The position numbers and the translations under genes were made by a program. Under the pieces are notes generated by a model, which saw only the letters and a list, made by a program, of their open reading frames with translations, did no database searches and had not been told where the DNA came from. Below, piece after piece: positions 30,122-49,402 of a stretch of 64,000 nt of DNA; position 1 is the stretch's first letter; each line of letters opens with the position of its first letter. This DNA comes from an uncultured Lachnospiraceae bacterium. GTDB lineage: Bacteria > Bacillota > Clostridia > Lachnospirales > Lachnospiraceae. The stretch covers positions 19,221 to 83,220 of the forward strand of contig CADBFE010000001.1 in NCBI GenBank assembly GCA_902793845.1, given 5' to 3'.

Positions 30122-30134
30122 AAAGATTAGAAAT

Positions 30135-30192: not shown

Positions 30193-30202
30193 TATTTACA
30201 AT

Positions 30203-34534: not shown

Positions 34535-35074
34535 ATGCGTGAAGGAATGAGATTAGTATTTCCTACGATAGATTATAAAGATAAAGCAATTGAATACATA
34601 AATGAGTTTTATGAATATAACTCGGAAATAAACGGCAGCGGATCACTCGATAGGTTTCTAAAGGAATCTACATATGAAAAATGGCTTGAAAAGCTGGTAT
34701 ATGCGATGGATATAGCCAATATGCAGGAAAACAAAGTACCTGATCTGACATATTTTTATGTACGTGAATCTGATGACAGAATCGTTGGGACGATAAATAT
34801 ACGATTGGCATTAAATGATTTCCTTCGTAAAGAGGGAGGACATATCGGATATTCTGTTAGACCGACAGAGAGAAGGAAAGGCTTTGGAACAGATATGCTG
34901 GCAGAAGGTATAAAGGTCTGTGAGAGTATAGGAATACATGAAGTGCTGGTGTCCTGTGATAAAGAGAATATTGCGTCATCAGGGGTAATTAAGAACTGCG
35001 GCGGAGTACTAAAAGTCGAATTCTACAGTCAGACTTACGATGAGATTCTGCAGATGTATGTGATAAAGTGCTAA
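34535..35074 (+). CDS. GNAT N-acetyltransferase
   Basis: GGHIGYSVRPTERRKGFG, CDKENIASSGVIKNCGG. Confidence 0.88.
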   Translation: MREGMRLVFPTIDYKDKAIEYINEFYEYNSEINGSGSLDRFLKESTYEKWLEKLVYAMDIANMQENKVPDLTYFYVRESDDRIVGTINIRLALNDFLRKEGGHIGYSVRPTERRKGFGTDMLAEGIKVCESIGIHEVLVSCDKENIASSGVIKNCGGVLKVEFYSQTYDEILQMYVIKC

Positions 35075-35101
35075 TTACTTTGGAATTGTATAACATGGAG
35101 A

Positions 35102-35899
35102 ATGAAAATGTTTTTCTTTAAAAGAAAGAAATCAGAACTTGATAAAAAAACAATTAAAGAAATAATTGATGCTGCCGATTGGATTATCGAATCATGTAAT
35201 AAGCCGGCTAAAACCGATTATGAAAAATCAGAAACTGAAAAAATAGAATCTGAAAAATCAAAATCATCCAATGAGGCAATTAAATATAGTTTAGCACGCC
35301 CGGTTACACTTAATACCGGATTAATTAGTGATTATTCAGAAGAACGAAAAGAAGGAATATTCAACGATTTATCTGATAAATCCGATAAAGACGTAATCGA
35401 AGAAAAAAGTGTAAATAAAGAAGCCGAATCCTCTGAATCTGAGAAAAAAAGCAATAAAAATGACGGTGTCAGGTACAGTTTAAATGATAATTATACAAGT
35501 GATTTTAATTGGCAGGACGACTACCTCGACCATATTGATAAATTATTAAAAGCATCAAAAAAAGTTGAGACATTTTCAGATAAAATAGAAAAATTTATAA
35601 AATTGAAAGGCTTAACAAGTGTTCAATTTTATAAAGCCGCAGACATAGACAGAAAAGTATATTCTGCTATGCGGAATACCCCCAATTATCAGCCTAAAAA
35701 AGAAACAGCCATAGCATGCTGTTTTGGACTGAAACTAAATCTGGAAGAGGCAGAAGATTTATTAAAATCAGCAGGGTATTCCTTGTCTACATCTATAAGG
35801 AGAGACGTTATTATCAGATATTGTCTGGATCTTAATAAATTTTCAATATTTGATATTAATGAGATTTTAGATGCAGCAGGAGAGAAGACTCTTCGGTAA
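35102..35899 (+). CDS. Putative XRE-like HTH regulator with charged low-complexity N-terminus
   Basis: C-terminal FYKAADIDRKVYSAMR...PKKETAIACCFGLKLNLEEAEDLLKSAGYSLS resembles the Firmicutes HTH domain often fused to macro domains (recalled). Confidence 0.7.
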   Translation: MKMFFFKRKKSELDKKTIKEIIDAADWIIESCNKPAKTDYEKSETEKIESEKSKSSNEAIKYSLARPVTLNTGLISDYSEERKEGIFNDLSDKSDKDVIEEKSVNKEAESSESEKKSNKNDGVRYSLNDNYTSDFNWQDDYLDHIDKLLKASKKVETFSDKIEKFIKLKGLTSVQFYKAADIDRKVYSAMRNTPNYQPKKETAIACCFGLKLNLEEAEDLLKSAGYSLSTSIRRDVIIRYCLDLNKFSIFDINEILDAAGEKTLR

Positions 35900-35920
35900 A
35901 TCATCTTTTTAGAAACAAGT

Positions 35921-35967
35921 AAGCACGGTTGAACGGCAATTGGAACCCGATAGAACCGTGCTTTTTT
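35921..35967 (+). terminator. Terminator-like inverted repeat after the XRE gene
   Basis: AAGCACGGTT (35921-30) / AACCGTGCTT (35954-63) followed by a T run; long 23-nt loop. Confidence 0.5.
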
Positions 35968-35980
35968 AGTTTCAAAATAT

Positions 35981-35997
35981 GTCTTTTTGTAAAAGAC
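35981..35997. promoter_or_regulatory. Palindrome, candidate operator
   Basis: GTCTTTT-TGT-AAAAGAC between the XRE gene and the AAA operon. Confidence 0.3.
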
Positions 35998-36022
35998 CAC
36001 TTGGAAGACCCAATGAGCTAAT

Positions 36023-36199
36023 ATGGAATTAGCAACAGAAAGGATAATGCATATGGAAACTGATTATGAAAAACAATTTATTGAAATATTGCGATCTGAA
36101 AATCTGGATTATGAATATGTGAAAAAACTTTTACATACAGTAGGGGTAAAAGGGGGAGTTATGGGATTTTTACAATTTTTATCAAAGTCCAATATATAG
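36023..36199 (+). CDS. Possible small ORF (58 aa, below the track cutoff)
   Basis: MELATERIMHMETDYEKQF...SKSNI-stop; AAGGA precedes the in-frame ATG at 36053; no motif. Confidence 0.3.
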   Translation: MELATERIMHMETDYEKQFIEILRSENLDYEYVKKLLHTVGVKGGVMGFLQFLSKSNI

Positions 36200-36241
36200 T
36201 ACATGAATATTTATATTCTAATGATGAGGTAAAGGAATTAT

Positions 36242-37342
36242 ATGAGAGCAATACAAACAGGAAGTATATTTAAAATATTCGATGATAGTCTTAAGACTTA
36301 TGATCAGTTGCCAGTAAAGACATACATGGTTGGATATACCCAGCAGGAAGGATGTTTTCTGATTCAACATCCTAATATTGTTGTGACTGAGAAAACATAT
36401 GGAATTCATAATAGTAAAGTGAAGAAGGTTATGAATTCGTTTGAAAACTATGAAAGAAGCCTTGGCATAATTCTTAGTGGTGATAAGGGTATTGGCAAAA
36501 CGATTTTTGCTAAGTTAATTTGTCAAAATGCATTATCGAAAGGTTTACCTGTGATTATCGTGGACTCATGCTTGCCTGGGGTAGCAAGATTTATTGAATC
36601 AATTGAGCAAGAGTGTGTGATTATGTTTGATGAATTTGATAAGATATTCAGAAGTGGAAGAAATCGGGATGATGATGATGATCAAGCGGCATTGCTTAGT
36701 TTGTTTGATGGAACAGCGGGTGGAAAGAAACTTTTCATTGTGACTTGTAATGAGTTATATGGTCTCAATGAGTATATTGTGAACCGTCCCGGACGTTTCC
36801 ATTACCATTTCAGATTTGAATATCCTTCTACTCAAGATATCAAAGAATATCTATCAGATAAACTAAATTCACAATATTCAGACGAAATTGAAAAAGTGGT
36901 AGGGTTTGCGCAGAAGATTAATCTTAACTATGACTGTTTGAGAGCTATTGCCTTTGAATTGAATCAGGGGATTCCGTTTAAGGAGGCTGTGGCAGACTTA
37001 AACATCCTTAATATTAACAGGGAAGAGTACAAGGTAATTCTTTATTATGAGGATGGGACTATACTTCATAATTATCATTTTTCAACAAATTTATTTGATA
37101 ACAATGGTTGCTGGACTTGGGTAGATTTATACGACGACAAAGGTGAGGAGATTGTCAGCGTGAGATATGACAAAGAACTTGCAACTTATGACATTGCTCA
37201 TAATACAACAGTGATTCAGGGAGATACATTATTGCTTGAGTATGAGTGTGATGCCGACGATGAAAAATTGTATAAGAATAAAAAGCCATTACACATCACT
37301 TTTGCTAAATGCAATGTTCGAAATTTACATTACATTGTTTAA
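36242..37342 (+). CDS. AAA+ ATPase
   Basis: Walker A GDKGIGKT, Walker B VIMFDE, NRPGRF arginine-finger region; AAAGGA RBS. Confidence 0.88.
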   Translation: MRAIQTGSIFKIFDDSLKTYDQLPVKTYMVGYTQQEGCFLIQHPNIVVTEKTYGIHNSKVKKVMNSFENYERSLGIILSGDKGIGKTIFAKLICQNALSKGLPVIIVDSCLPGVARFIESIEQECVIMFDEFDKIFRSGRNRDDDDDQAALLSLFDGTAGGKKLFIVTCNELYGLNEYIVNRPGRFHYHFRFEYPSTQDIKEYLSDKLNSQYSDEIEKVVGFAQKINLNYDCLRAIAFELNQGIPFKEAVADLNILNINREEYKVILYYEDGTILHNYHFSTNLFDNNGCWTWVDLYDDKGEEIVSVRYDKELATYDIAHNTTVIQGDTLLLEYECDADDEKLYKNKKPLHITFAKCNVRNLHYIV

Positions 37343-37355
37343 GGAGGATAACATT

Positions 37356-39098
37356 ATGCCAAATTTTATTGAACATATTGGTTTTGACGAATTTATAAAT
37401 AGAGAAAAGGATATTACTGGGTTAGTTGGCTATGCTATTGAGAATGGAAAACCAGTGATTGGATACTACGGACATCCATATATTAATTATCATGATGGGG
37501 ATGCACAATTTATAATAAGAACTCGTATTAATCAGGAAAATAAGAAAATCGAAGTTGTTGGGTTTGATACTCATGGTGATGGCAACTCTGTATGGAAGGT
37601 TAGATTGCATGAAATAAATATAGATGATAGTGATGATCCTACTAGTAAGCGTGTATGTGTAACAAGAGAAGATGGGTCAGGATTGACCGTAATAAATATT
37701 GTTAATGCTGATGTCCTGCCTAGTTTTGCCAAGGATGAAATATATAGTTTGCAGATGATAGCGTTCCCAATTGATATAAAATATTACGAGTCAAGTGATG
37801 ATTATGAGGAAGATGAAAAATTAAACGTTGATGGAAAAAATTGGCTACTTGGAGAGGGGACAGTCTTTCCTTTGGGCTTTATGTCAAATCATATGTTATC
37901 AGAAGATGGCGATATTGATGAAATAAAGAAAATTGATCCTAAACAGGATGATGTAGTAGTTGTTCGTGGAGTTGTAAAAAGTCTTTATTATGGTGTGTTA
38001 CAAAATGGAGAAGAAAAGGTTAGGGCATATATTAGATGTATTGTAGAAACCGCATATGGTGACCTTGAAATAGATCATGGATTTAACGCTGTTGATGAAG
38101 AACAACGAAAAAACATAAAAATTGGGTCAACGGTTGTGGCGATGGTTGTTTTGTCAGGAGATGCAGCTATCTACGAATATTCCGATGGTTTTGTTAAGGA
38201 TGAAGAGCATAATCTTAGACTACTTCGATATACATTTATTAATGGGGATCCTGAGAGGTTGAGATTAGTTTTATCAGAAGATGCTGAATATTATTCGGAT
38301 TCAAATGGAAAAAACTATAAGGGAAAGGAAGAGATTATTTCAAGAATTAAGTATGTTCAGGAAAATGGAAAACATAAATATTATGCACATATGGCGAAAA
38401 TAACTTCGGTTGACGATAATGGTGCTTCAGATTTAATTTATCCGGTTGGAACAAAGTGCGTGATTTTGGCATCTGAAGACAGTAATAATTTTGAATCAAT
38501 AGCGTTTGTGACAACAAATAGCCAGGGATATATTACTAAGATACATACATCTATGGATAGTAATTATCATTTTAAGGTTGAGGAATTGCCCAATATAAGT
38601 GATGATATCAAAATTCCTGAATCATACCAGGAAAGAATGATATTAAGGGCTAGATATCATGGCTTCCATGACTGTTCAACTGATGAAATGCTTGAAAAAG
38701 TACATGTTTCTAGTCGGGATGAAGAAGTAATAAAAATGTTTATTTCTGAAAAATTATTATGTAAGGGGCCGATAAAACCAGAAATTGCCGAGAATATCTT
38801 TGGATATATTTTTGCAAAAGGAATAGAAGACAATGCTTTCCCAGTAATGAATCATGTTCCATCTTTTGAAAATTGTTTTAATGCTTCAGATGGTATTTTT
38901 GATGCAAAAGCAGGGGGAAAGCTAAAAGAAAAATTGGAGTATGCGATGAACAAAGGGAAGCAATTCTTAAAGGATTACAATGATATTTCTGATTCCAAGG
39001 ATATATTTATCGATGAAATAGCAGAGGCACTCAAATATGTTTATGCTTTAGCAAAAGAATGTGCACAGAGTTATTTGAAAGAGTTGGAAGAAAATTAA
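37356..39098 (+). CDS. Hypothetical 580-aa acidic protein
   Basis: AAGGAGG RBS before ATG 37356 (the track start 37236 overlaps the upstream gene); no motif recognised. Confidence 0.8.
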   Translation: MPNFIEHIGFDEFINREKDITGLVGYAIENGKPVIGYYGHPYINYHDGDAQFIIRTRINQENKKIEVVGFDTHGDGNSVWKVRLHEINIDDSDDPTSKRVCVTREDGSGLTVINIVNADVLPSFAKDEIYSLQMIAFPIDIKYYESSDDYEEDEKLNVDGKNWLLGEGTVFPLGFMSNHMLSEDGDIDEIKKIDPKQDDVVVVRGVVKSLYYGVLQNGEEKVRAYIRCIVETAYGDLEIDHGFNAVDEEQRKNIKIGSTVVAMVVLSGDAAIYEYSDGFVKDEEHNLRLLRYTFINGDPERLRLVLSEDAEYYSDSNGKNYKGKEEIISRIKYVQENGKHKYYAHMAKITSVDDNGASDLIYPVGTKCVILASEDSNNFESIAFVTTNSQGYITKIHTSMDSNYHFKVEELPNISDDIKIPESYQERMILRARYHGFHDCSTDEMLEKVHVSSRDEEVIKMFISEKLLCKGPIKPEIAENIFGYIFAKGIEDNAFPVMNHVPSFENCFNASDGIFDAKAGGKLKEKLEYAMNKGKQFLKDYNDISDSKDIFIDEIAEALKYVYALAKECAQSYLKELEEN

Positions 39099-39125
39099 AT
39101 GTTTATAGAGATTAGGTAGAAATAT

Positions 39126-40232
39126 ATGATTGAACGAAGAGTAAATACTTCTCAGATGCCGGTTTCGAAGTTTGAGAATAAATTCGTAAATGTATATACA
39201 AAATTGATAGAATCAGGAACTTCATTTAAGCTGTTTCCGTCGGTAATGTTATGGGGGCCTCCTGGAGTTGGTAAATCTCAGGCTGTAAAGCATATTGCAG
39301 AAAAAGTTTCCGATAAAACAGGTAAAAAAGTTTCGGTTACTGACGTCAGACTTTTGCTTTTTAATCCCATAGATCTTCGTGGTATTCCGACTGCAAATGC
39401 AGATAAGACATTGGCGGTATGGCTCAAACCCAAAATCTTTCAAATGGATGATAGTAAAGATGTAGTTAATATTCTGTTCTTGGATGAAATATCTGCAGCA
39501 CCTCCATCAGTACAGGCGGCTGCGTATCAAATTGTTTTAGACAGAACAATAGGAGAACATGAACTTCCTGATAATTGTATTGTTATTGCGGCGGGAAATC
39601 GTGTTACAGATAAATCTGTAGCGTACGCAATGCCTAAAGCGTTGGCAAATCGTCTTATGCACATAGAAGTTGTGGGAGAACCACTTGGATGGCGGGAGTG
39701 GGCAACTTCCCATAATATACACCCGTATGTAATAGGTTTTATAAATTACAGTCCGGCAATGCTTATGGGATTTGATCCGTCATTGGAAGACCTAGCATTT
39801 CCGACACCGAGATCATGGGAAATGGTTAGTAATATTTTGAATTATATTTCAGATAATCTTGATGAAGTTATGCCACTTATTTCAGGATGTATTGGAAGTG
39901 ATACGGCTTATAGTCTGAAATCGTGGACTGAAATGTATGAGGTGATTCCGGAAATAACTGAGATACTTGATGGAAAACACAAGGATATTCCAACACGTCC
40001 GGAAATAGCTTTGGCTTTGATGTCTCAGATGGGAATGTATTTACGTGAACATCATAGTGTTGAAGAGGTAAAGAATGCCCTTGATTTTGTATTCAATATG
40101 CCTATTGAATACAGAAGTCAGGCCTTAGTGGATTTTCTTGCGGTAAAAGAAATCCATGGATTATTAAGAAATGATGATCGTTATTGCAACTGGTTTCTAC
40201 GTTCAGGAAGATATTGGGAAGACTATGCATGA
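39126..40232 (+). CDS. MoxR-like AAA+ ATPase (DUF2201-partner type)
   Basis: Walker A GPPGVGKS, DLRGIP, Walker B LFLDE, AAGNR, ALANR, PTPRSWE. Confidence 0.88.
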   Translation: MIERRVNTSQMPVSKFENKFVNVYTKLIESGTSFKLFPSVMLWGPPGVGKSQAVKHIAEKVSDKTGKKVSVTDVRLLLFNPIDLRGIPTANADKTLAVWLKPKIFQMDDSKDVVNILFLDEISAAPPSVQAAAYQIVLDRTIGEHELPDNCIVIAAGNRVTDKSVAYAMPKALANRLMHIEVVGEPLGWREWATSHNIHPYVIGFINYSPAMLMGFDPSLEDLAFPTPRSWEMVSNILNYISDNLDEVMPLISGCIGSDTAYSLKSWTEMYEVIPEITEILDGKHKDIPTRPEIALALMSQMGMYLREHHSVEEVKNALDFVFNMPIEYRSQALVDFLAVKEIHGLLRNDDRYCNWFLRSGRYWEDYA

Positions 40233-41602
40233 ATATGACCAAACTTCGTAGACAAAGATTGAAGTATAAAATTCAGGATGCAAGAGCAGAGTTATTGATG
40301 GAAAAGCCTTTCTATGGACTGCTACTGATGTATTTAAAATTTGTAGCTGTTGATAATATAAGGAATATTTCAACAAACGGAAGATGCGTGTATTTTTGCC
40401 CTGCATTTATAGAAAAACTTACATTATACGAATTGCAGTTTGTTCTATGTCATCAGGTTATGCATATATTAAACGGTGATATATGGCGAGATGTTGCTTT
40501 TGCTGGTGATGAGTATCACAGGGCATTTGACATAGTGATAAATCGTGAATTGCTAAAACGAGGATGGAATGTTTCAGGACTAACGCATCTTGGGAAATTA
40601 CAGTATACTATTCCACAAAGTCGGTACAAACTGGATGAACTGAATGCGTATGAGATATACCAATGTTTTCCGTTCAAATTGAAAATGCTTGATGATAGGA
40701 CTCGAAAGCGTTATATGGCAGATTCAGATTTTTGGTGGGATTATAAGGATGAAAATGGATTTGAAGGTATAACAATTATTGATTTACCGAAGATAACTAA
40801 ATGGGCCGATAAACCGATTGGCTTAAATGGTGAGACTATTGAAGATGTGGATGGAAATGCAGGAAATGGTGGTACGAGTTCGGACATTTCAGGAAGCGCA
40901 AACATAGAAATACTAAAAAGTGAACTGCTTGCTGATTTTTGGGAAAATAGAGCACAGCTTGCTATGCAGGCTTCGCGAGGTCAAAATAGAGGTAAGGGTG
41001 TAGGTGATATGCCAGATTCGGCCAAACGAGCAATGGACAAACGTCATAAAAGCAAAACTGACTGGAGAGATCTTCTCAACACTTTTGTACAGGAAGAGAT
41101 TACGGATTATTCTTTTGCTCCACCGGATAGACGATTTATGGATTCGGATTTCTTTTTACCAGATTTCAATGAAAAAGAGGCAAATATTAAAGATATTCTT
41201 TTTATGGCTGATACATCGGCTTCTATTGATCGGCATGAACTCGGAGTTGTTTATTCGGAAATTAAAAGTGCAATAGAACAATTTAATGGCAAGATTAGCG
41301 GAAAATTGGGATTCTTTGATGCGGCAGTGACTCCACCGATTTTATTTGAGAGCGTAAAAGATTTGGAGAAAATTATACCCTATGGTGGTGGAGGTACAGA
41401 TTTCAGAGCAATCTTCAAGTATATAAATAAAGAAATGCAAGATTGTTTACCGTCTGCGATAGTTATTTTTACAGATGGAGACGGACCATATCCGGAAGAG
41501 CAGGATATTCCGAATGTTCCGGTTCTTTGGTTAATTAATAATGATGAAGAAAAGCCACCATTTGGTAAAGTAGCAAGAATATTACCTGATCACTATAATT
41601 GA
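40229..41602 (+). CDS. DUF2201-like metallopeptidase-fold + vWA domain protein
   Basis: ATG overlaps the upstream TGA (ATGA); N-terminal PFYG..STNG..HQVMH; C-terminal MIDAS DTSAS, GGGTDF, FTDG. Confidence 0.85.
   Translation: MNMTKLRRQRLKYKIQDARAELLMEKPFYGLLLMYLKFVAVDNIRNISTNGRCVYFCPAFIEKLTLYELQFVLCHQVMHILNGDIWRDVAFAGDEYHRAFDIVINRELLKRGWNVSGLTHLGKLQYTIPQSRYKLDELNAYEIYQCFPFKLKMLDDRTRKRYMADSDFWWDYKDENGFEGITIIDLPKITKWADKPIGLNGETIEDVDGNAGNGGTSSDISGSANIEILKSELLADFWENRAQLAMQASRGQNRGKGVGDMPDSAKRAMDKRHKSKTDWRDLLNTFVQEEITDYSFAPPDRRFMDSDFFLPDFNEKEANIKDILFMADTSASIDRHELGVVYSEIKSAIEQFNGKISGKLGFFDAAVTPPILFESVKDLEKIIPYGGGGTDFRAIFKYINKEMQDCLPSAIVIFTDGDGPYPEEQDIPNVPVLWLINNDEEKPPFGKVARILPDHYN
41594..41599 (+). 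promoter_or_regulatory. Possible -10 box for the retron ncRNA inside the vWA gene 3' end
   Basis: Perfect TATAAT 18 nt upstream of the first inverted repeat; -35 position weak (TAGCAA). Confidence 0.4.
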
Positions 41603-41616
41603 TTAGGGTGATATAT

Positions 41617-41785
41617 ACACGGAACTCTAGTGTAGCCGGCTAGTGCTGGCATGTTCAGCGATTCGCTGTTCGTAAAATAATCTTTGTTACATTTAATGGC
41701 ATCTGCTTCAACGTAGCAGAAGGCACGCTGACACGTGCTTATCTACGCCTTCGCAGAAGCGATATATAACTGTTTTGTTCCGTGT
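41617..41785 (+). ncRNA. Retron msr-msd ncRNA
   Basis: Terminal inverted repeats ACACGGAAC (41617-25) / GTTCCGTGT (41777-85); two short msr-type hairpins (41635-50, 41656-68); long imperfect msd-type hairpin 41696-41763; ends just before the RT RBS (AAGGAGG 41796-802). Confidence 0.82.
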
Positions 41786-41810
41786 GAGACCATGAAAGGA
41801 GGGTGGAAAA

Positions 41811-42725
41811 ATGAATATGATTGTTTATAAAGAATTATCCACCCTTTGTCATGATCTTGGGTTTTCGGCAAGAGCATTATACTTTGCAAGCAATACAATT
41901 GAGAATCATTATCATGATGTTGAAATTCCAAAAGGGAATGGCGAAACAAGATTACTGCATGTACCAGATAATTTCATGAAGGCGATTCAGAGGAGTATTG
42001 CAAAAAACATTCTGTTTTATTATGAAATATCTCCTCATGCTGTTGCATACAGAGTATTAGGCAGTACAAAACTAAATGCTTTTCCGCATGTTGGTAAAGA
42101 TATGGTGATGAAATGTGATATACGAAAGTTTTTTGATCATATTACTTTTCAGATGCTTAGAAATAAGGTGTTTCCCTCTTCAGTTTATTCGGAGAGTAAT
42201 AGTATTCTTCTTTCAGTTCTTTGTACGTATAGAGGATCAATTCCTCAAGGTGCACCGACATCTCCAGTGATTTCAAATATTATATTAAGAGATTATGATT
42301 TACGTGTTGGAAAATGGTGTTCTGAAAGAAATATTTCATATACAAGATACTGTGACGATATGACTTTTTCAGGAAATTTTGATGCAACAAAGGTTAAAGC
42401 GTTTATAAAAGACGAACTGAAAAAAGAAGGATTCTTTTTAAATGGAAAGAAGACGGTTGTCCTTCATCAGGGACAAAGAATGGAGGTTACCGGTATTGTT
42501 GTAAATGAAAAGATTTCAATTCCAAGAAATTACAAGCGAAGACTTCGACAGGAATTATACTATTGTAAGAAAATTGGATGGAAGAATCATCTTAAAAAAA
42601 CAGGAATTCATGAAAATGTTGATTCGTATAGAAAGAAAATCTTGGGAAGGATTAATTATGTACTCTTAATTGAACCGAATAATAAAGAAATGAGTGAACT
42701 CAAAGATTGGGTATTAAACAATTAA
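41811..42725 (+). CDS. Retron-type reverse transcriptase (304 aa)
   Basis: IPKGNG, region X NAFPH (NAxxH), DIRKFFDHI, PQGAPTSPVISN, YTRYCDDMTFSG, region Y VTGIVVN; no maturase or endonuclease extension. Confidence 0.92.
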   Translation: MNMIVYKELSTLCHDLGFSARALYFASNTIENHYHDVEIPKGNGETRLLHVPDNFMKAIQRSIAKNILFYYEISPHAVAYRVLGSTKLNAFPHVGKDMVMKCDIRKFFDHITFQMLRNKVFPSSVYSESNSILLSVLCTYRGSIPQGAPTSPVISNIILRDYDLRVGKWCSERNISYTRYCDDMTFSGNFDATKVKAFIKDELKKEGFFLNGKKTVVLHQGQRMEVTGIVVNEKISIPRNYKRRLRQELYYCKKIGWKNHLKKTGIHENVDSYRKKILGRINYVLLIEPNNKEMSELKDWVLNN

Positions 42726-42940
42726 TTATTTCAGAAACATTTAGTATTTAACGAAAACTTTGGCGATGTTAGTCCACAAAATTTTAGACGTTGGCTTTTA
42801 TAATTTGATTATTTAAATAAAGTATTTTTAATTACTGTCACGATTGCTGTTAGAAGTATATAATAATATTTTAGATAGATATTTAATGTATGATAACGTC
42901 AATAGGGACCAATATATAGATTGGGCATAAATGAAAAAAT

Positions 42941-43777
42941 ATGGATACTATTTATTGTAGAAAATGTGGAAAACAAATATTATCGGACAGCGATTATTGT
43001 ATGTATTGTGGCGAAAAAATAATTTTTGTCACAGAAATAAAATCTAGTGATAATAATTTAGTAAATCAAAATATTAAAGAACGTATTATTAAAAAGAATA
43101 AATTTGATAAAAATAATTTTCTTTATAAAACACTTTCTTTTATAAAGAAAAATATAACTCATTTGCTATTTGGCGGATTGGTTATATTTGCTTTTATTGT
43201 ATTAATAACAACAGTAAGTATTAATATGGCTCAAACTGAGAAAAAAAGCGATAATACTCAAAATAATAATAATCAAACAAATAATACTCAAGCCAACAAA
43301 AATGATTCTCTGGAAGACGAAGAAAAAGAATTAATACCATATAATGCATATCATGGGGAAATAATAATTAAGCCTTCCTATTATAGAACATGTCCTTTTG
43401 TAGTTCATACAGATGAAGGAGAAAATTATTATATTTATCTTAAATATATAGGTGCTCCTTCTTATTCCGTTGAGAAAAGAGAAAAAAATCCAAAGGCATC
43501 AAATAATGAAAATAATATTTCTGTTTATGCAGTTGGAGGGAAAACAATTAATATTGATGTACCTATTGGAAAATATGAAATGTATTATTGTACGGGAGAT
43601 GTTTTTTATGGAAACGAAAAACGTTTTGGTGATGAAACAAGAGCCTATGTAGCAGATGATATTTTAGTATTTTATGTTGACGATAATTATTACCAAGGGA
43701 ATGAAATCACATTATATTCAGTTGTAAATGGAAATATGGACACATCAGTAATTAATATAGATGATTTTCCTAAATAA
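42941..43777 (+). CDS. N-terminal zinc-ribbon, single-TM membrane protein
   Basis: CRKC-x10-CMYC at residues 6-23, TM helix near residues 75-95, Asn/Gln linker, C-terminal beta-rich domain. Confidence 0.78.
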   Translation: MDTIYCRKCGKQILSDSDYCMYCGEKIIFVTEIKSSDNNLVNQNIKERIIKKNKFDKNNFLYKTLSFIKKNITHLLFGGLVIFAFIVLITTVSINMAQTEKKSDNTQNNNNQTNNTQANKNDSLEDEEKELIPYNAYHGEIIIKPSYYRTCPFVVHTDEGENYYIYLKYIGAPSYSVEKREKNPKASNNENNISVYAVGGKTINIDVPIGKYEMYYCTGDVFYGNEKRFGDETRAYVADDILVFYVDDNYYQGNEITLYSVVNGNMDTSVINIDDFPK

Positions 43778-43789
43778 TAAGGAGAGAAT

Positions 43790-45262
43790 ATGAGTCTTTA
43801 TAGTTTGTTTTATAATATTTTAACTGCATTATTTTGTTTATTGTCATTGAAATTTGATTTAATGATTATAAAGAGTATTTCGGTTTTTTTAGGTATAACT
43901 GCACTGTTTGCACCGATATTTGGAGCTTTATATAGATTCAAAAATAATATTAATGAAAAAAACAGTTCATCATATGATGCATTTTCAATCGCTATTGCAT
44001 TTTTCACTTTTGAATATAGTTTGAATTTGATATTAGGAACACGGGCGTTGTCGGTTGGTCTATTGTTATACGTTATTTCTGTTATAGTTTTTTTAGAAAT
44101 AAATCGAAAGGAAATAATTATAGAACAAAATTCAACCTCTAAAAAAAGAGAAAATTATAAAAGAAAAATTTCTATTTTATCGATACTATGTATGATTGTT
44201 GACATAGTATTATATTTAGTTTTTATTGTTCTATATTTTAAGAAGGTAAATGAAGCGGTTAAATATTTTTGTGTGATTTTGGCTTTTGCATCACCTTTGT
44301 ATCCTATTTTTGTTAAAAATTATAGAATTAATAATCATATACAATCAAAAATAAATAATGCATTAGAAAATATATCTGCTTGTTTTGTTTTTGTTGTTTA
44401 CTATAATTATCTTACTTATTTATTGGGGATTAAAATTTATGCTGCTTTTATTTCTGTAGCGGCAACATTGGTTTCACTTTTTTTTCATAAAAAAATATAC
44501 CCTTATTATGATGATTATAAAAAATATGAACCCTTAGTAAATGAAAATAAAAAAACATTTGAAGAAAAAGCGTTAAATATTTCAAGAGAAAATGAAATAA
44601 GCGCATTAATAAAAGAACACATAGAAGACAAAGAATATACTCCGGAAAGCTTTTTTTATGCCAGGGAAGAAGCTTTATTTGGTTTGTATAAAGACCATAT
44701 TATAAGTAAGTCTGAATGTTTATACATGGCCAAATTAGAAATAAAAACAGTTATATTAGATTTGCTTAAAACAATAATAATTACTGAAAGTGATTTTTAT
44801 AATGAATCATTTTCTGTTGATCATGCGGCTGAATATGCGTATAAGAATTGTATTACAGATATTAATAATATTGATGAATTAGAAAGTAAAATAAATCAAA
44901 AATATTCAGGATATAATTCTAGAGTAAGAGAAAAGGCAAAGATAGCATTTCCTCAGATTTATGTTATTTATAAAACATATATAAATAATATTATGGATAA
45001 ATTATCTGATATAGAAGATTCCTATAAGAAAATAGAAAAAGTTGATAAATCTTTACAATCGCAAAAACTTCCAATGAAAAAAGAAAAAATAAGTAAAGAT
45101 AATAAAGTCGAAGAACAGTTGTACGAGGATTCACTAAATAACAATTATACGAAAAATAAAACAACTAATCATGAAAAATTATATTGCAGAAAATGTGGAA
45201 CCGAACTTGTTATAGATAGTGAATTTTGTTATAAGTGTGGTACAAAAGTAATTCGCATATAA
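43790..45262 (+). CDS. Polytopic membrane protein with C-terminal zinc ribbon
   Basis: About 8 hydrophobic segments in the N-terminal half, soluble C-terminal half, CRKC-x10-CYKC at the C-terminus; very AT-rich. Confidence 0.75.
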   Translation: MSLYSLFYNILTALFCLLSLKFDLMIIKSISVFLGITALFAPIFGALYRFKNNINEKNSSSYDAFSIAIAFFTFEYSLNLILGTRALSVGLLLYVISVIVFLEINRKEIIIEQNSTSKKRENYKRKISILSILCMIVDIVLYLVFIVLYFKKVNEAVKYFCVILAFASPLYPIFVKNYRINNHIQSKINNALENISACFVFVVYYNYLTYLLGIKIYAAFISVAATLVSLFFHKKIYPYYDDYKKYEPLVNENKKTFEEKALNISRENEISALIKEHIEDKEYTPESFFYAREEALFGLYKDHIISKSECLYMAKLEIKTVILDLLKTIIITESDFYNESFSVDHAAEYAYKNCITDINNIDELESKINQKYSGYNSRVREKAKIAFPQIYVIYKTYINNIMDKLSDIEDSYKKIEKVDKSLQSQKLPMKKEKISKDNKVEEQLYEDSLNNNYTKNKTTNHEKLYCRKCGTELVIDSEFCYKCGTKVIRI

Positions 45263-45379
45263 AGTATCGTATTTGATATTATTTATCTATTTTGCTGTTT
45301 CGGCGATTTAGTTATGCTATAAGTACATTGCTCAATTGTATGTTGAGTTTATTGAGCTTGATTTATGTATAAAAAATCT

Positions 45380-45430
45380 TATATCCCTAATGATCCTACA
45401 TTGACTAAAACATTATGATGAAAAAATGAT
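45380..45430 (+). pseudogene. Short relic of an rpn gene
   Basis: TATATCCCTAATGATCC (17 bp) identical to 48194-48210 and CATTATGATGAAA identical to 48224-48236, with a 1-nt spacing shift. Confidence 0.7.
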
Positions 45431-45593
45431 TATACGTTTAACTAGTTCAGAAAGAAGGCAATCAACAGGCTAAAATAAAATTTTATTATGTGTCATACAA
45501 CTGTATTTCAGATCGTAACAATAGCAACAGGAAGACAAGCGTGTATATTGAGGGCGGTCTATTATATTTTATGAAAAATGGAGCATAGATATT

Positions 45594-45914
45594 GTGATAA
45601 AAAGATCAGAAAAGAGTCTTGAACTATTTAAAATCTTAAAGGAAAGAGGCTATTCTGAAGCCTTTTGCTATGAGGTGACTTATAATCTTAATACAGATTG
45701 GACTGCGCAGCGTATGATAGGATATTTGAGTCACTATAAAAAACTTCCAATGGAAGAGGTCGCAGATGAAGTTTTGGCAATATTAAGTCATAGAAATCAG
45801 ATTATGCAGAAAAAACATTTGGAAGATATTAATGCCCGTTGGAATCAATATCTTAATGAAGGATTCGATGAAGACATAGACGCTGAAAGGAATAGTGATA
45901 ATGTCATTTTTTAG
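45594..45914 (+). CDS. Hypothetical 106-aa protein, copy A
   Basis: GTG start after GGAG; about 94% nucleotide identity to 49021-49341. Confidence 0.8.
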   Translation: MIKRSEKSLELFKILKERGYSEAFCYEVTYNLNTDWTAQRMIGYLSHYKKLPMEEVADEVLAILSHRNQIMQKKHLEDINARWNQYLNEGFDEDIDAERNSDNVIF

Positions 45915-46302
45915 AAACAAAATGACAAGAGTTGTTTACTTAATTTTATCTGCTATTGTTCTGGGCGTAGAGATATTAATCGGTCTGTATGCACATGGAT
46001 GGATCAGGAGCTATCTTGGAGATGTTCTTGTTGTTATCCTGCTTTATTCCATTTTTAGAACAATTTTTCCTAAATGGCCGGGGAAATGGTATGTACTTCC
46101 TACGGTTATTCTCATATTTGCATTTGGCGTGGAATTTCTACAACTCTGGGGCTTCTGCGACCGATTCGGAATAACGAATCGATTGCTTCGAATTATTATC
46201 GGAACTGGATTTTCGATTGAAGATCTGGTGAGTTATTCGATTGGAATTGTGCCGTGTTATGTTGTGGAATATCTGACAATGAGGAGAAAATTCAGACATT
46301 AA
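45895..46302 (+). CDS. DUF2809-like small membrane protein
   Basis: HGWIRSYLGDVLVVILLY, VEFLQL, IIIGTGFSIEDL (family recalled); true start may be 45901 or 45922. Confidence 0.75.
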   Translation: MIMSFFRNKMTRVVYLILSAIVLGVEILIGLYAHGWIRSYLGDVLVVILLYSIFRTIFPKWPGKWYVLPTVILIFAFGVEFLQLWGFCDRFGITNRLLRIIIGTGFSIEDLVSYSIGIVPCYVVEYLTMRRKFRH

Positions 46303-46316
46303 TTATAAAAGATTAG

Positions 46317-46460
46317 GGTTTATATGGCGATGAAATTATGTCTTTGACGGCAATCATGCGAAAGATAAAAGGCTATAAAAACATAGCGGGAACATCATAT
46401 TTTACATATAAGGGAGAACCTCTTGCTGATATTGCAGCAAGAACACAATGGAAACAATAA
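46317..46460 (+). pseudogene. C-terminal fragment resembling the tail of T5orf172/GIY-YIG-type proteins
   Basis: Open frame GLYGDEIMSLTAIMRKIKGYKNIAGTSYFTYKGEPLADIA...; the SLT...AG.xYFxYKGExLxDI pattern is recalled from such tails; no 5' part. Confidence 0.4.
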
Positions 46461-46509
46461 GTCGGGTTTTAGTTGTATTTGGTGATAAATTAATTTTTTA
46501 AGAGTATAT

Positions 46510-47058
46510 ATGAAATTTCAGATTATTCCTTTTGGGAAGGGCAAAAATCGAATACTGTTTATCCATTTAAAACGCCCAATGAAAAATGGTTTTGCAGGTA
46601 TGGTCACAAGTAACATCTTTAAGGATGAACGTATCGCAATAATGGTTGATAATGAAAATACTGTAACTGATTATGATTTTGCCGGTCTGACTTTGACAAA
46701 AACGGGTTTCAGTTCGATCAATATGGATAAGGAAGTCTTTTACGGCATCAAACAGGGAAATCCTATGGCAAGAATGATTCTCTTTCATGAGTTGGGACAT
46801 TATTATTATGGAGATCTTCAAAATAAGGATTTCAAACAGGAGGAATATCAAAAGCGCAGAGAAAATGCTATAAAGAATGGGGGCGTTGTTGATGAAGAAG
46901 TTAGGGCAGATGCATTTGCCTTAAATTATTTAGATTTAGAATATGTGACGAAAGCGCTTGAGATATTGAAAGAAAAAATTCAAGAGAAATACGGTCCTGA
47001 TAAGGATGCAGAATTGATTATAGAAGAAATCAATATTAGAATGCAGAAGATATCATAA
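46510..47058 (+). CDS. ImmA/IrrE-like zinc metallopeptidase
   Basis: LFHELGH (HExxH) followed by EVRADAFA (ExxAD/N). Confidence 0.72.
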   Translation: MKFQIIPFGKGKNRILFIHLKRPMKNGFAGMVTSNIFKDERIAIMVDNENTVTDYDFAGLTLTKTGFSSINMDKEVFYGIKQGNPMARMILFHELGHYYYGDLQNKDFKQEEYQKRRENAIKNGGVVDEEVRADAFALNYLDLEYVTKALEILKEKIQEKYGPDKDAELIIEEINIRMQKIS

Positions 47059-47060
47059 AT

Positions 47061-47098
47061 AAAACCCGGATGGTGGCGAAAACTACTATCTGGTTTTT
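47061..47098 (+). terminator. Intrinsic terminator after the metallopeptidase gene
   Basis: AAAACC(C)GGATGGTGG / CTACTATCTGGTTTT stem with G-U pairs and a T run. Confidence 0.6.
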
Positions 47099-47210
47099 AG
47101 TGATTGAACAAACAAAAAAAATAAAATTCAATATTAATATGGCTACATTTTATTGTTTTTGGAGGATAATTTTTCAGCATATGCAATTATTCTTTTTTAA
47201 TATATATCCG

Positions 47211-47239
47211 TTGACTTTGGGGGCAAAAACGAGTACATT
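47211..47239 (+). promoter_or_regulatory. Promoter directly upstream of the 35-nt repeat array
   Basis: TTGACT, 17 bp, TACATT; the predicted start site falls at about 47246-47247, the first repeat base. Confidence 0.6.
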
Positions 47240-47246
47240 TTTAGTT

Positions 47247-47350
47247 GCAGAGAACCCTGCTGTGAGTGGGAACAATAAAAAGCAGAGAACCCTGCTGTAA
47301 GTGGGAACGATAAAAAGCGGAGAATCCTACCGATAAGTGGAAACGATACA
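47247..47350 (+). ncRNA. Type III TA antitoxin-like (ToxI/AbiQ-like) array of three ~35-nt pseudoknot repeats
   Basis: Units at 47247, 47282 and 47317; A-rich tails; unit 3 has two compensatory pairs (CAG/CTG to CGG/CCG; CCC/GGG to TCC/GGA) in interleaved stems; flanked by a promoter and a terminator. Confidence 0.72.
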
Positions 47351-47377
47351 GAGCTGCATTATTGCAGCTCTTTTTTC
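47350..47377 (+). terminator. Intrinsic terminator closing the repeat array
   Basis: AGAGCTGC-ATTATT-GCAGCTCT followed by a T run. Confidence 0.85.
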
Positions 47378-47412
47378 ATAATTAAGAATATAATTGAGAA
47401 AATGAATTTATC

Positions 47413-47441
47413 TTGACACGATTGCGTTAAAATAATATATT
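47413..47441 (+). promoter_or_regulatory. Near-consensus sigma70 promoter upstream of rpn
   Basis: TTGACA, 17 bp, TATATT. Confidence 0.65.
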
Positions 47442-47635
47442 CTTTATGAGAATATGAGATTTTTCATTTTGATTGTTTTTCTTTAAGGTAATTGTCTGTT
47501 TATCAACTTCTCTTTTTAAATTTGTAAAAAGCCAATTTATCGTGGCTAAGCACCTGAAAACAAGTTATAATTAAAGAGATATGAGGAATGCTCATTTAAA
47601 TGAGTTTTATTCTTATGTCTCGGAAAGGACAAATT

Positions 47636-48484
47636 ATGCATCAGAAGGATTTAGCTGAAAAGCTTCTGTTTGATTATAATGACGTCTTTGCCGATGTCAT
47701 TAATGGTTATGTATTTAAAGGTAACCAGACAATAAATGAAAACCAATTAAAAGATAGCAAGATACGGACTCAGTTTAAAGCTGATGACAGCAAGCTTCAT
47801 GAACAGGAACGTGATATACTCAAGGAGTGGTGTGATTCAGACATAAGAATCGCAATTTGTGGGATTGAAAACCAGACACTTCCCGATGAGTATATGCCAC
47901 TCAGGGTAATGAGTTATGACGGGGCTTCATATAAAAGCCAGCTAATTGATAAAAATCAAAAGCCTGTTCCCGTTATGACGGTCATTCTGTATTTTGGAAC
48001 AGAAAAAAGATGGGAGTATCCGCGTAATCTAAAAAATATTATAAATATACCACCTGAAATTGATGATTTCGTAAACGACTACAGGATTAATGTCCTTGAA
48101 GTTGCATGGATGGAAGAAAGCGAACTTGAATGTTTCAGTGGTGATTTCAAGATAGTAGCAAATTTTTTGATTAATAGGAGAAAGAATCCAGGGTATATCC
48201 CTAATGATCCGACAGTAATCAAGCATTATGATGAAATGATGAAATTGCTGACAATTGTAACAAACGATAAGAAATATGAGAAAATCATTAGTATACCGAC
48301 AGATAATAAGGAGGCGAGATCTATGTGTACTGTAGCGCAGAATTTAATTAATATTGGAAGAAATGAAGGAATAAATGAAGGTAAAAGTCAGTCTATTGAC
48401 CGTCTAACTGAGTACTTTATGAATCAGAATCCAGAAATAACGGCTGAAGAGGCCAGGGATATGGCGACTAAAATTCTTAAATAA
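47636..48484 (+). CDS. rpn: Rpn family PD-(D/E)xK nuclease (RpnL)
   Basis: NDVFADVIN, QERDILK, GIENQT, MPLRVMSYDG..Y, PVMTVILYFG, NDYRINVL, C-terminal GxxEG repeats; ATG 47636 follows GAAAGGA. Confidence 0.85.
   Translation: MHQKDLAEKLLFDYNDVFADVINGYVFKGNQTINENQLKDSKIRTQFKADDSKLHEQERDILKEWCDSDIRIAICGIENQTLPDEYMPLRVMSYDGASYKSQLIDKNQKPVPVMTVILYFGTEKRWEYPRNLKNIINIPPEIDDFVNDYRINVLEVAWMEESELECFSGDFKIVANFLINRRKNPGYIPNDPTVIKHYDEMMKLLTIVTNDKKYEKIISIPTDNKEARSMCTVAQNLINIGRNEGINEGKSQSIDRLTEYFMNQNPEITAEEARDMATKILK
48323..48484 (+). CDS. Predicted intragenic RpnS antitoxin (53 aa, in frame within rpn)
   Basis: Perfect AAGGAGG (48308-14) 8 nt before the in-frame ATG of MCTVAQNLINIGRNEG. Confidence 0.72.
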   Translation: MCTVAQNLINIGRNEGINEGKSQSIDRLTEYFMNQNPEITAEEARDMATKILK

Positions 48485-48498
48485 TATAAATAACAATT

Positions 48499-48536
48499 AA
48501 AATGACCGCCGGGACAAAGAGTCAGGCGGTTATTTT
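48499..48536 (+). terminator. Terminator after rpn
   Basis: AAAATGACCGCC / GGCGGTTATTTT. Confidence 0.7.
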
Positions 48537-48545
48537 AAATAAACA

Positions 48546-48995
48546 TTGGTGATAAAAATGATTAGTAAACTATTATCAAATTCCCCATTCTTATTCATGG
48601 GAGGTTTCGTTTTCTTATTTTCAAGATTCTTTAATATGATGCTTCAGGACCCTAAGGATTTAAAGCATACTACAGGTATTGTTACAAAAATATGGGAGCC
48701 AACCGATTCTTCTACCTATAGGGCAGAAGTAAAGTTCTTGTCGGAAACAGGCCATACAGTGTATGCCAAAATGGTTGGTCTTAGAAACGTTGAGAATGCT
48801 AATGAAGGCGATGAAATAGAGATAGATTATCACTTCGTGAAGGATGGTTCATGCTATGCCACATCAAATGATCCAAGATATGTATCAGGAATGGATATTG
48901 AAAGTGCAAAAAAATATAAAACAGGATGCCTGTGGATTTCCGGATTAACGGTTGTTTTATACATAGTGCTTACCGTTATTGAATTTATAAAGTGA
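48546..48995 (+). CDS. Two-TM membrane protein (DUF3592-like topology)
   Basis: N- and C-terminal TM helices around a TTGIVTKI...beta-rich domain. Confidence 0.6.
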   Translation: MVIKMISKLLSNSPFLFMGGFVFLFSRFFNMMLQDPKDLKHTTGIVTKIWEPTDSSTYRAEVKFLSETGHTVYAKMVGLRNVENANEGDEIEIDYHFVKDGSCYATSNDPRYVSGMDIESAKKYKTGCLWISGLTVVLYIVLTVIEFIK

Positions 48996-49020
48996 GAAAA
49001 AACGAAAGAATATACAGATT

Positions 49021-49341
49021 GTGAAAAATAGATCAGAAAAGAGTCTTGAACTATTTAAAATCTTAAAGGAGAGAGGTTATCCTGAAGCCTTCTGTTATGA
49101 AGTGACCTATAATCTTAATACAGATTGGACTGCACAGCGTATGATAGGATATTTGAGTCACTATAAAAAACTTCCAATGGAAGAAGTTGCAGATGAAGTG
49201 CTGGCTATATTAAGTCATAGAAATCAGATTATACAGAAAAAAAATTTGGAAGATATTAATGCCCGCTGGAATCAATATCTTAATGAAGGATTCGATGAAG
49301 ACATTGACGCTGAAAGGAATAGTGATAATGTCATTTTTTAG
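49021..49341 (+). CDS. Hypothetical 106-aa protein, copy B
   Basis: Near-identical paralog of 45594-45914. Confidence 0.8.
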   Translation: MKNRSEKSLELFKILKERGYPEAFCYEVTYNLNTDWTAQRMIGYLSHYKKLPMEEVADEVLAILSHRNQIIQKKNLEDINARWNQYLNEGFDEDIDAERNSDNVIF

Positions 49342-49402
49342 CAAGCTGTTTCAGAAAAATAAAACAGCATCTTTGCTTGAATAGATACGAGGGTAGTAAT
49401 AA

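What the first reader, a model, noticed from the sequence alone, without database searches (positions are those of the whole stretch)
41617..41785. Foldable retron msr-msd RNA not explained by any ORF
Seen: 9-bp a1/a2 repeats (10 with a G-U pair); hairpins GCCGGC-TAGT-GCTGGC and CAGCG-ATT-CGCTG; a long hairpin in which 41699-706/41753-60 and CGTAG/CTACG share one register, capped by AGGCACG-CTGACA-CGTGCTT. Inference: the branching G is probably 41630 or 41632, and the msDNA should be roughly 75-95 nt complementary to about 41690-41776. A compact 304-aa Firmicutes RT with YCDD is also of interest for retron editing tools.
Basis: partly seen in the sequence, partly recalled or inferred. Interest (0 to 1): 0.75.

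Follow-up and report, generated by a model that had tools for sequence, protein, structure and literature searches.

The report
Ec107-type retron template RNA, confirmed
The stretch is a genuine retron template RNA (msr-msd) for the reverse transcriptase gene next to it. It belongs to the already described Ec107-like "orphan" retrons of gut Clostridia, so it is ordinary, except that here and in a minority of relatives it sits inside a MoxR/vWA operon that may be its unknown partner.

Summary
Observation confirmed. The 9-bp a1/a2 repeat is at 41617-25/41777-85 (10 bp with a U·G pair).

The same architecture lies directly upstream of the RT gene in all 80 homologous loci. Covariation is strong: 88.8% of cells paired against 32-44% in slid controls, and 38 of 44 pairs changed on both sides. 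An independent set of 28 sequences gave the same helices de novo.

A41629/G41630 are invariant in 80/80 loci and G41632 in only 58/80, so the branching G is 41630.

The 304-aa RT has the NAxxH, YCDD and VTG motifs. Its best match is PADLOC RT_Ec107-like (6.9e-122). This is the "clade 2 / Ec107-like" stand-alone retron lineage of Mestre 2020, which a 2026 SPIRE survey found abundant in gut Bacillota. It is therefore a new member of a known kind. This scan has already noted Ec107-type orphan retrons in two other genomes.

One extra result concerns the neighbours. Most relatives have no conserved neighbour, but the MoxR AAA+ / DUF2201 (peptidase-like + vWA) pair upstream recurs next to this retron type in several gene orders and in dispersed RT lineages. 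That makes it a candidate partner.

The parts
41579..41614 (+). Leader hairpin just 5' of a1. It is a 14-bp stem with the TATAAT 41594-99 in its loop, and its 5' arm and loop overlap the last codons and stop (41600-02) of the DUF2201 gene.
   Evidence: Fold. The same hairpin is found in L113 and L007 (as the coding tail of DUF2201) and in L009/L014 (non-coding). Its role is inferred.
41616..41625 (+). a1 inverted repeat: ACACGGAAC, plus T41616 pairing with G41786.
   Evidence: Helix 1 is 94.9% paired and all 8 pairs covary.
41630..41630 (+). Predicted branching (priming) guanosine, in the invariant AG of the TAG motif.
   Evidence: A41629/G41630 are invariant in 80/80 loci and in 40/40 sequences of A1. 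The priming role is inferred from retron biology.
41635..41650 (+). msr hairpin 1: GCCGGC-TAGT-GCTGGC.
   Evidence: Helix 2 is 89% paired and 4 of 5 pairs covary.
41651..41673 (+). msr hairpin 2, with core CAGCG-ATT-CGCTG at 41656-68. The family consensus is CCGGCAGCG-AGU-CGCUGCCGG with a near-invariant GCGAGUCGC. It is the likely RT recognition hairpin.
   Evidence: helix 3, 95% paired. The window has two U·U mismatches and U instead of the G that is at least 90% conserved in the loop.
41690..41772 (+). msd, the template for msDNA. The long stem is 41699-706/41753-60, then 41712-16/41743-47, with the tip at 41721-27/41734-40. G41772 is at least 90% conserved and lies just 5' of the family a2.
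   Evidence: (helices 4, 5 and 7). The 5' boundary of the copied part is not determined.
41777..41786 (+). a2 inverted repeat: GTTCCGTGT plus G41786. In family register a2 starts at 41773.
41613..41789 (+). Whole msr-msd ncRNA as matched by covariance model R1.
   Evidence: 97 bits, E 1.5e-23. It is the only copy in the 2.44-Mb genome.
41811..42725 (+). Retron reverse transcriptase, 304 aa, with RBS GGAGG at 41798-41802.
   Evidence: PADLOC RT_Ec107-like 6.9e-122 and Pfam RVT_1. Nearest solved structure is the retron Ec86 RT, E 5.7e-33.
39126..41602 (+). MoxR-type AAA+ ATPase (39126-40232) and DUF2201_N/DUF2201 peptidase-like + vWA protein (40229-41602). This is a candidate, not proven, partner module of the retron.
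   Evidence: Pfam. Recurrent linkage with this retron type.
36242..39098 (+). AAA ATPase (36242-37342) and a 580-aa protein with no family match (37356-39098). Both are also present in the retron operon of genome G436.
   Evidence: L112 carries homologues at 54-66% and 38% identity, downstream of its RT.

Best explanation
Region 41613-41789 encodes the msr-msd non-coding RNA of a retron of the Ec107-like (Mestre clade 2) lineage. The 304-aa RT gene starts 25 nt downstream of it.

Proposed mechanism:
1. The transcript folds so that a1 (41616-25) pairs with a2 (41777-86).
2. The RT binds the msr hairpins. The near-invariant GCGAnUCGC hairpin 2 is the best candidate for the recognition element.
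3. The RT primes from the 2'-OH of the invariant G41630 and copies the msd from about 41771-41772 leftwards to somewhere around 41690.
4. This yields a branched, hairpin-forming msDNA of roughly 75-85 nt.

What is shown: the sequence elements, their conservation and covariation, and the RT family. What is inferred from retron biochemistry: priming at G41630, the template start, the msDNA length, and that msDNA is made at all.

Like most of its clade, the cassette looks self-contained (ncRNA + RT). The biological output of this clade, presumably phage sensing with an unknown or trans-acting effector, is unknown. In this locus the adjacent MoxR/DUF2201 operon is the only candidate partner.
For: - The MFE fold forms a1/a2, two msr hairpins and the long msd hairpin.
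- The RT matches RT_Ec107-like at 6.9e-122 over its full length, against 5.3e-97 for the next model, RT_III-A. NAFPH, YCDD and VTG are in the translation.
- The 80 homologous RT loci (47-64% identity, almost all gut or rumen Clostridia MAGs) all carry the same RNA at the same place (81/81 sources). 13 further RT loci from a class-wide genome sample were searched and 10 gave a hit.
- Covariation: 88.8% paired against 32-44% in slid controls, 38/44 pairs changed on both sides, 0/500 shuffles as high. An independent set reproduces it: 28 of 33 pairs with compensatory change.
- A41629/G41630 are invariant in 80/80 loci.
Against: - There is no direct evidence of transcription or msDNA.
- The window copy scores lower than most relatives: 97 bits, about rank 58 of 81.
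- Its hairpin 2 has two U·U mismatches. Its loop is AUU where at least 90% of relatives have AGU. It also lacks about 11 nt of the msr-msd linker. Reduced activity therefore cannot be excluded.
- No convincing promoter of its own. The TATAAT at 41594-99 has no -35 and was not listed by the scan, unlike many relatives with consensus promoters.
- Rfam has no match.
- I could not run Mestre's own Ec107_like model or compare with E. coli Ec107 itself. blastn against E. coli genomes found nothing.
Confidence: 0.88

Rival explanations
1. The retron is not an orphan here. It is a dedicated component of a multi-gene system with the MoxR AAA+ ATPase and the DUF2201 peptidase-like/vWA protein, plus the AAA ATPase and the 580-aa protein. 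This would be analogous to retrons that have co-opted other defence modules. The RT-msDNA complex would sense phage attack and gate, or be remodelled by, the MoxR-vWA chaperone pair.
For: - In an evenly drawn sample of 399 genomes of the class, the RT family is in 14 and the DUF2201 subfamily in 8 (both counts include the window's genome). Both occur together in 3, and each time in the same gene cluster.
- G050 (L111): promoter, ncRNA, RT, MoxR, DUF2201, with the MoxR start overlapping the RT stop.
- G436 (L112): ncRNA, RT, AAA366 homologue, 586-aa homologue of the window's 580-aa protein, 273 aa, MoxR, DUF2201. This is the window's gene set in a permuted order.
- In DUF2201-centred metagenome loci, 7 of 52 with at least 1.3 kb of downstream flank carry the ncRNA + RT. 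In six it lies 0-386 nt after the DUF2201 stop on the same strand. L137 and L150 look like duplicates.
- L113, the closest relative (RT 70%, DUF2201 66% identical), keeps the window's arrangement.
- Linked loci are scattered over the RT tree: 6 changes needed, and dispersed again.
- In the window the ncRNA starts 14 nt after the DUF2201 stop, and the leader hairpin overlaps that stop.
Against: - About 90% of Ec107-like RT loci have no such neighbour: 77 of 80 lack MoxR/DUF2201 within 6 kb.
- 11 of 13 other RT-bearing genomes in the class sample have no DUF2201 homologue at E<=1e-30 anywhere. The retron therefore does not need this module.
- Most MoxR/DUF2201 pairs have no retron.
- These genes also sit with RtcB, RlaP, DUF2828 and WYL genes, so co-residence in a conflict or RNA-repair island, or repeated recombination at a shared sequence, could explain the proximity.
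- The loci are not phylogenetically independent, and no formal test was done.
- The SPIRE survey reports no recurrent accessory module for this clade.
Confidence: 0.35
2. The cassette is a decaying or inactive retron relic: the ncRNA and RT are recognisable but no longer make msDNA.
For: Deviations from the family consensus in hairpin 2 (two U·U mismatches, loop AUU instead of AGU), a shorter msr-msd linker, a below-median model score, and no clear promoter of its own.
Against: - The RT ORF is intact and full length against the HMM (residues 3-302 of 304), with all catalytic and retron motifs.
- The invariant AG, a1/a2, the msd stem and the RBS are all intact.
- Relative L113 shares the short linker and the same a1, so these are lineage traits rather than decay.
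Confidence: 0.06
3. The structure is a cis-regulatory leader or a terminator of the upstream operon, or an RNA of another kind, and is only coincidentally retron-like.
For: It lies between two co-oriented genes. A strong hairpin (41579-41614) overlaps the upstream stop codon.
Against: - The RNA travels with the RT gene whatever lies upstream: variable or divergent neighbours in 80 loci.
- It has the retron-specific layout with an invariant AG after a1.
- No Rfam family matches.
- No terminator-like site was found there.
Confidence: 0.02

Closest known systems
Retron-Eco5 (Ec107) branch of RT clade 2, also called 'clade2_Ec107like' stand-alone retrons (Mestre et al. 2020, PMC7736814; SPIRE survey 2026, PMC13712802)
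   Same: - The RT's best match is the RT_Ec107-like model.
- The cassette is ncRNA + unfused RT of about 300 aa.
- Most relatives have no conserved effector gene.
- Hosts are gut or rumen Clostridia, matching the published 93% Bacillota and 92% host-associated figures.
- The ncRNA has two msr hairpins and a long msd hairpin.
   Different: - In this locus the cassette lies at the 3' end of a MoxR/DUF2201 operon, a linkage not reported in either paper.
- I could not compare directly with E. coli Ec107 or with the published Ec107_like covariance model.
Type III-A retrons (RT + PRTase-like effector + winged-helix protein), e.g. Retron-Eco11
   Same: Sister RT lineage. RT_III-A models are the second-best hits (5.3e-97).
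   Different: PADLOC and Pfam matched no PRTase-like or winged-helix family in the four upstream and two downstream neighbour proteins. The Ec107-like model scores 80 bits higher.
Retron Ec86 (Retron-Eco1, type II-A), the best characterised retron and the nearest solved RT structure
   Same: - The general mechanism is expected to be the same: a1/a2 pairing, and a branching G directly after a1 and opposite a G that precedes a2. The Ec86 details are from my memory.
- RT fold: 7v9u, E 5.7e-33.
   Different: Different RT clade and ncRNA sequence. Ec86 has an NDT/DNA-binding effector, and none is present here.
Retron Ec78 / type I-A (retron joined to the Septu PtuAB ATPase-nuclease; PMC12819146 abstract)
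   Same: It is a precedent for a retron cassette attaching to a pre-existing ATPase-based module. This is the model for the MoxR/DUF2201 hypothesis.
   Different: Unrelated partner proteins. The linkage here is facultative (about 10% of loci) and functionally untested.

Membership tests
Retron (msr-msd ncRNA + retron RT) | RT of the retron clade with YxDD plus the retron-specific NAxxH and VTG motifs | tested here: met
   PADLOC retron RT models from 6.9e-122. NAFPH, YCDD and VTG are seen in the translation. NCBIfam retron_St85_RT scores 211 bits, below its 235-bit cut-off.
Retron (msr-msd ncRNA + retron RT) | Inverted repeats a1/a2 enclosing the msr hairpins and a long msd hairpin, directly upstream of the RT on the same strand | tested here: met
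   Conserved in 81/81 sources with covariation.
Retron (msr-msd ncRNA + retron RT) | Conserved branching G at the end of a1 | tested here: met
   G41630 is invariant in 80/80 loci. Its chemical role was not tested.
Retron (msr-msd ncRNA + retron RT) | Production of 2'-5' branched multicopy single-stranded DNA | not testable with these tools
Retron (msr-msd ncRNA + retron RT) | Linked effector gene (tripartite system) | tested here: inconclusive
   No neighbour is conserved across the 80 loci. MoxR/DUF2201 is linked in a minority.
Clade 2 Ec107-like stand-alone retrons | RT best assigned to the Ec107-like profile and separable from type III-A | tested here: met
   404.6 bits against 323 bits for the best RT_III-A model. 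Same result for the genome-wide search.
Clade 2 Ec107-like stand-alone retrons | ncRNA matches the published Ec107_like covariance model | not testable with these tools
   The published model is not available here. My own model R1, built from loci of the same RT family, matches at 97 bits.
Clade 2 Ec107-like stand-alone retrons | No specifically associated protein cluster | tested here: inconclusive
   True for about 90% of relatives. The window's own locus is in the minority linked to MoxR/DUF2201.
Type III-A retron | Adjacent PRTase-like effector and winged-helix DNA-binding protein | tested here: not met
   No PRTase or winged-helix family among the Pfam and PADLOC matches of the six neighbour proteins scanned, 36242-45262.
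Rfam RNA families | Match to any curated covariance model | tested here: not met
   Only chance-level hits (E 2.3-7.2) elsewhere in 40000-44000, and none in 41600-41810.

The most novel reading that the evidence does not exclude
A subset of the supposedly effector-less Ec107-like retrons, including this one, forms a conserved operon with a MoxR AAA+ ATPase and a DUF2201 peptidase-like/vWA protein. Here and in genome G436 the operon also has a second AAA ATPase and an uncharacterised protein of about 580 aa, and it is often next to RtcB/RlaP RNA-repair genes. This would be a new retron type whose partner is a chaperone/vWA module, and it would be the first lead to what Ec107-like retrons act through.
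Probability: 0.35. Interest if true: 0.8.

Novelty: new member of a known kind. Interest (0 to 1): 0.45.

Why it matters
As an RNA, this is one more member of a family that is already catalogued and has a published covariance model. The msr-msd finding itself adds little beyond a well-supported structure and a pinned branching G (41630) for a compact 304-aa RT.

It matters more as an entry point. Mestre 2020 explicitly leaves open what Ec107-like orphan retrons work with. They are the second most abundant retron group in the SPIRE survey. This locus, together with G050, G436, L007, L113, L115, L116, L125 and L137, shows the cassette repeatedly wired into MoxR/vWA operons. That gives a concrete, cloneable 6.5-kb test system.

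Tried and rejected
- Rfam scan of 40000-44000 at E<=10: nothing in the region.
- blastn of a family ncRNA against 5,426 E. coli genomes to reach Ec107 itself: no match.
- The downstream zinc-ribbon membrane proteins (42941-45262) as effectors: rejected. They have no homologues in any of the 80 RT loci. A 215-nt AT-rich gap with its own promoter-like site (42835-42864) separates them from the RT. About half of the relatives have a convergent gene downstream.
- PRTase / type III-A effector: none among the neighbours.
- First metagenome scan with the single DUF2201 protein: no relatives found. The repeat with a 4-sequence alignment worked.
- R1 search of the 10 DUF2201 loci from genome searches, each with only 1.5-kb flanks: no hit. 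The two linked cases (G050, G436) appeared only when larger regions were fetched.
- The TATAAT at 41594-99 as the retron promoter: not accepted. It has no -35, lies in the loop of the conserved leader hairpin, and was not listed by the scan.
- My extraction of the L112 RT for the second tree failed (empty translation), so G436 is not placed on that tree.

Full report
**What is in the sequence**

Between the stop of a DUF2201-family gene (TGA 41600-02) and the start of a 304-aa ORF (ATG 41811, RBS GGAGG 41798-802) lies a 208-nt spacer.
- a1 ACACGGAAC at 41617-25 and a2 GTTCCGTGT at 41777-85, plus a U·G pair at 41616/41786.
- Hairpin GCCGGC-TAGT-GCTGGC at 41635-50.
- Hairpin CAGCG-ATT-CGCTG at 41656-68.
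- A composite long hairpin: 41699-706/41753-60, then 41712-16/41743-47, with tip 41721-27/41734-40.

RNAfold forms exactly these helices. With a further 14-bp leader hairpin (41579-41614) the fold has a z-score of -4.67. No ORF explains the region, and Rfam has no match.

**The gene next to it**

The ORF is a retron reverse transcriptase.
- Pfam RVT_1.
- PADLOC RT_Ec107-like at 6.9e-122 over residues 3-302. RT_III-A models come next at 5.3e-97.
- NAFPH, YCDD and VTG are visible in the translation.
- The nearest solved structure is the retron Ec86 RT.
- It is the only such RT in the 2.44-Mb genome, and the RNA is the only copy.
- The RT was not found in the 24 same-genus species searched, so it is an accessory element.

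**Comparative test of the RNA**

A scan of species-representative genomes gave 80 loci with RT homologues at 47-64% identity. Almost all are gut or rumen Clostridia MAGs.
- Most show an a1/a2-type inverted repeat at the same distance from the RT start, with different sequences.
- A MAFFT alignment of 40 upstream regions shows invariant and compensatory columns.
- RNAalifold finds a1/a2, both msr hairpins and the msd tip. With ribosum scoring it also finds the long msd stem.
- Counting that structure gives 88.8% paired cells against 32-44% when partners are slid. 38 of 44 pairs have changes on both sides, and 0 of 500 shuffles are as good.
- A covariance model from this alignment (R1) finds one strong hit just 5' of the RT in all 81 sources. 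About half of them were not used to build it. Further loci gave hits as well.
- An independent set of 28 non-training sequences folded de novo gives the same helices, with 28 of 33 pairs showing compensatory change.

The data clearly fail to meet it.

**Branching G and template**

In the model-based alignment A41629 and G41630 are invariant in 80/80 loci. G41632 is G in only 58. So 41630 is the predicted priming G.

In family register a1/a2 runs right up to this G. For example, GGAACAATA-G pairs with TATTGTTCC in many loci. A G that is at least 90% conserved (41772) precedes a2. By analogy with Ec86 (from memory), copying would start at about 41771. The msDNA would then be about 75-85 nt if synthesis stops near 41690. 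The 3' end cannot be predicted.

The near-invariant GCGAGUCGC hairpin is the obvious candidate for the RT recognition site (inference).

The window copy has three peculiarities: two U·U mismatches in that hairpin, AUU instead of AGU in its loop, and a shorter msr-msd linker. Its closest relatives, L113 and L001, share the short linker.

**What is already known**

Mestre et al. 2020 describe this group as the Retron-Eco5 (Ec107) branch of RT clade 2. [quoted passage not shown] They leave open whether it uses unknown trans effectors.

A 2026 SPIRE survey counts 192 clade2_Ec107like retrons. They are 93% Bacillota and 92% host-associated, the Ec107_like RNA model is frequently detected, and they are rated "known-like/minimal expansion" with no recurrent accessory modules.

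Earlier notes of this scan reached the same classification for two other genomes. The RNA and RT are therefore a new member of a known kind.

**Neighbourhood**

Clustering all ORFs within 6 kb of the 80 RT genes shows no neighbour family conserved across loci. About half have a convergent downstream gene. Many loci show a consensus sigma-70 promoter ending 4-8 nt before a1 (examples). The cassette is generally autonomous.

The window's downstream zinc-ribbon membrane genes have no homologues in any other locus. They are not supported as effectors.

**The exception that may matter**

The window's upstream MoxR AAA+ and DUF2201 (peptidase-like + vWA) genes recur next to this retron type.
- In the RT-centred set they are present in L007 (same order as the window), L041 (convergent) and L070 (3.5 kb away).
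- In an evenly drawn sample of 399 genomes of the class, the RT is in 14 and the DUF2201 subfamily in 8. Both counts include the window's genome. Both occur together in 3 genomes, always in one cluster.
- G050 has promoter, ncRNA, RT, MoxR, DUF2201, with MoxR overlapping the RT stop.
- G436 has DUF2828, RtcB, RlaP, then terminator/promoter, ncRNA, RT, AAA366 homologue, 586-aa homologue of the window's 580-aa protein, 273 aa, MoxR, DUF2201, RNase T-like exonuclease. This is the window's gene set, permuted.
- In 80 DUF2201-centred metagenome loci, 7 of the 52 with enough downstream flank carry ncRNA + RT. In six it lies directly after DUF2201.
- The nearest relative, L113 (RT 70%, DUF2201 66%), keeps the window's order.
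- Linked loci are scattered over the RT tree.
- RtcB, SPFH, DUF2828, RlaP and WYL genes accompany several of them.
- In L009 and L014 the leader hairpin sequence persists as non-coding DNA behind an RtcB terminator and a promoter. Elsewhere the same sequence encodes the DUF2201 C-terminus. This suggests an ancestral DUF2201-retron junction in that clade.

Against a functional link: about 90% of these retrons lack the module, most MoxR/DUF2201 pairs lack a retron, and island co-residence is not excluded. I put a real functional coupling at about 0.35.

**Limits**

There is no direct comparison with E. coli Ec107. The transcription start in the window is unresolved. Association counts come from non-independent loci and have no formal phylogenetic test.

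**Verdict**

The element is a new member of the known Ec107-like orphan retron family. Its interest is moderate and comes mainly from the recurrent MoxR/DUF2201 linkage, which is worth a dedicated test.

Noticed in passing
window 39126-41602; L007, L041, L070, L111 (G050), L112 (G436), L113, L115, L116, L125, L137, L150, L190: The MoxR AAA+ / DUF2201 (peptidase-like + vWA) pair recurs next to Ec107-like retrons in at least four different gene orders. The published surveys I read report no accessory module for this clade.
   Followed up: partly
window 41579-41614; L113 about 1190-1225; L007 about 5770-5795; L009 5386-5410; L014: A hairpin sits just 5' of a1. In the window, L113 and L007 its 5' arm encodes the last residues of DUF2201 (R-I-L/I-P...). 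The same sequence (ATTATACCTG...CAGGATAA) is non-coding in L009 and L014, behind an RtcB terminator and a promoter. It may be a remnant of an ancestral DUF2201-retron junction, or part of the ncRNA.
   Followed up: partly
L007, L009, L014, L043, L112; also L117, L121, L124, L139: RtcB RNA ligase, RlaP nucleotidyltransferase, DUF2828/DUF7788 vWA, SPFH and WYL-domain genes accompany the retron and/or the MoxR/DUF2201 pair. The window's own genome has its RtcB on another contig (C120).
   Followed up: partly
L112 8952-10087 (minus strand): The homologue of the window's 366-aa AAA ATPase is split into 94-aa and 284-aa ORFs that overlap by 4 nt. This could be a frameshift, an assembly error or a real split.
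   Followed up: no
window 37356-39098; L112 7180-8940; L114 6646-7866: The 580-aa protein has no Pfam, NCBIfam or PADLOC match. It has homologues (38% and 30% identity) in two other MoxR/DUF2201 clusters, so it is a recurring uncharacterised component.
   Followed up: no
window 42941-45262: Two zinc-ribbon membrane proteins lie in the most AT-rich part of the region (24-25% GC). They have no homologues in any of the 80 retron loci, so they are probably an unrelated cassette.
   Followed up: partly
window 35000-50000: A low-GC stretch (24-38% against 45-46% at 28000-32000, upstream of it), consistent with an acquired island that contains the retron operon.
   Followed up: no
L011: One RT + ncRNA locus is labelled Bacteroidaceae, while nearly all others are Bacillota. 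This could be horizontal transfer or mis-binning.
   Followed up: no
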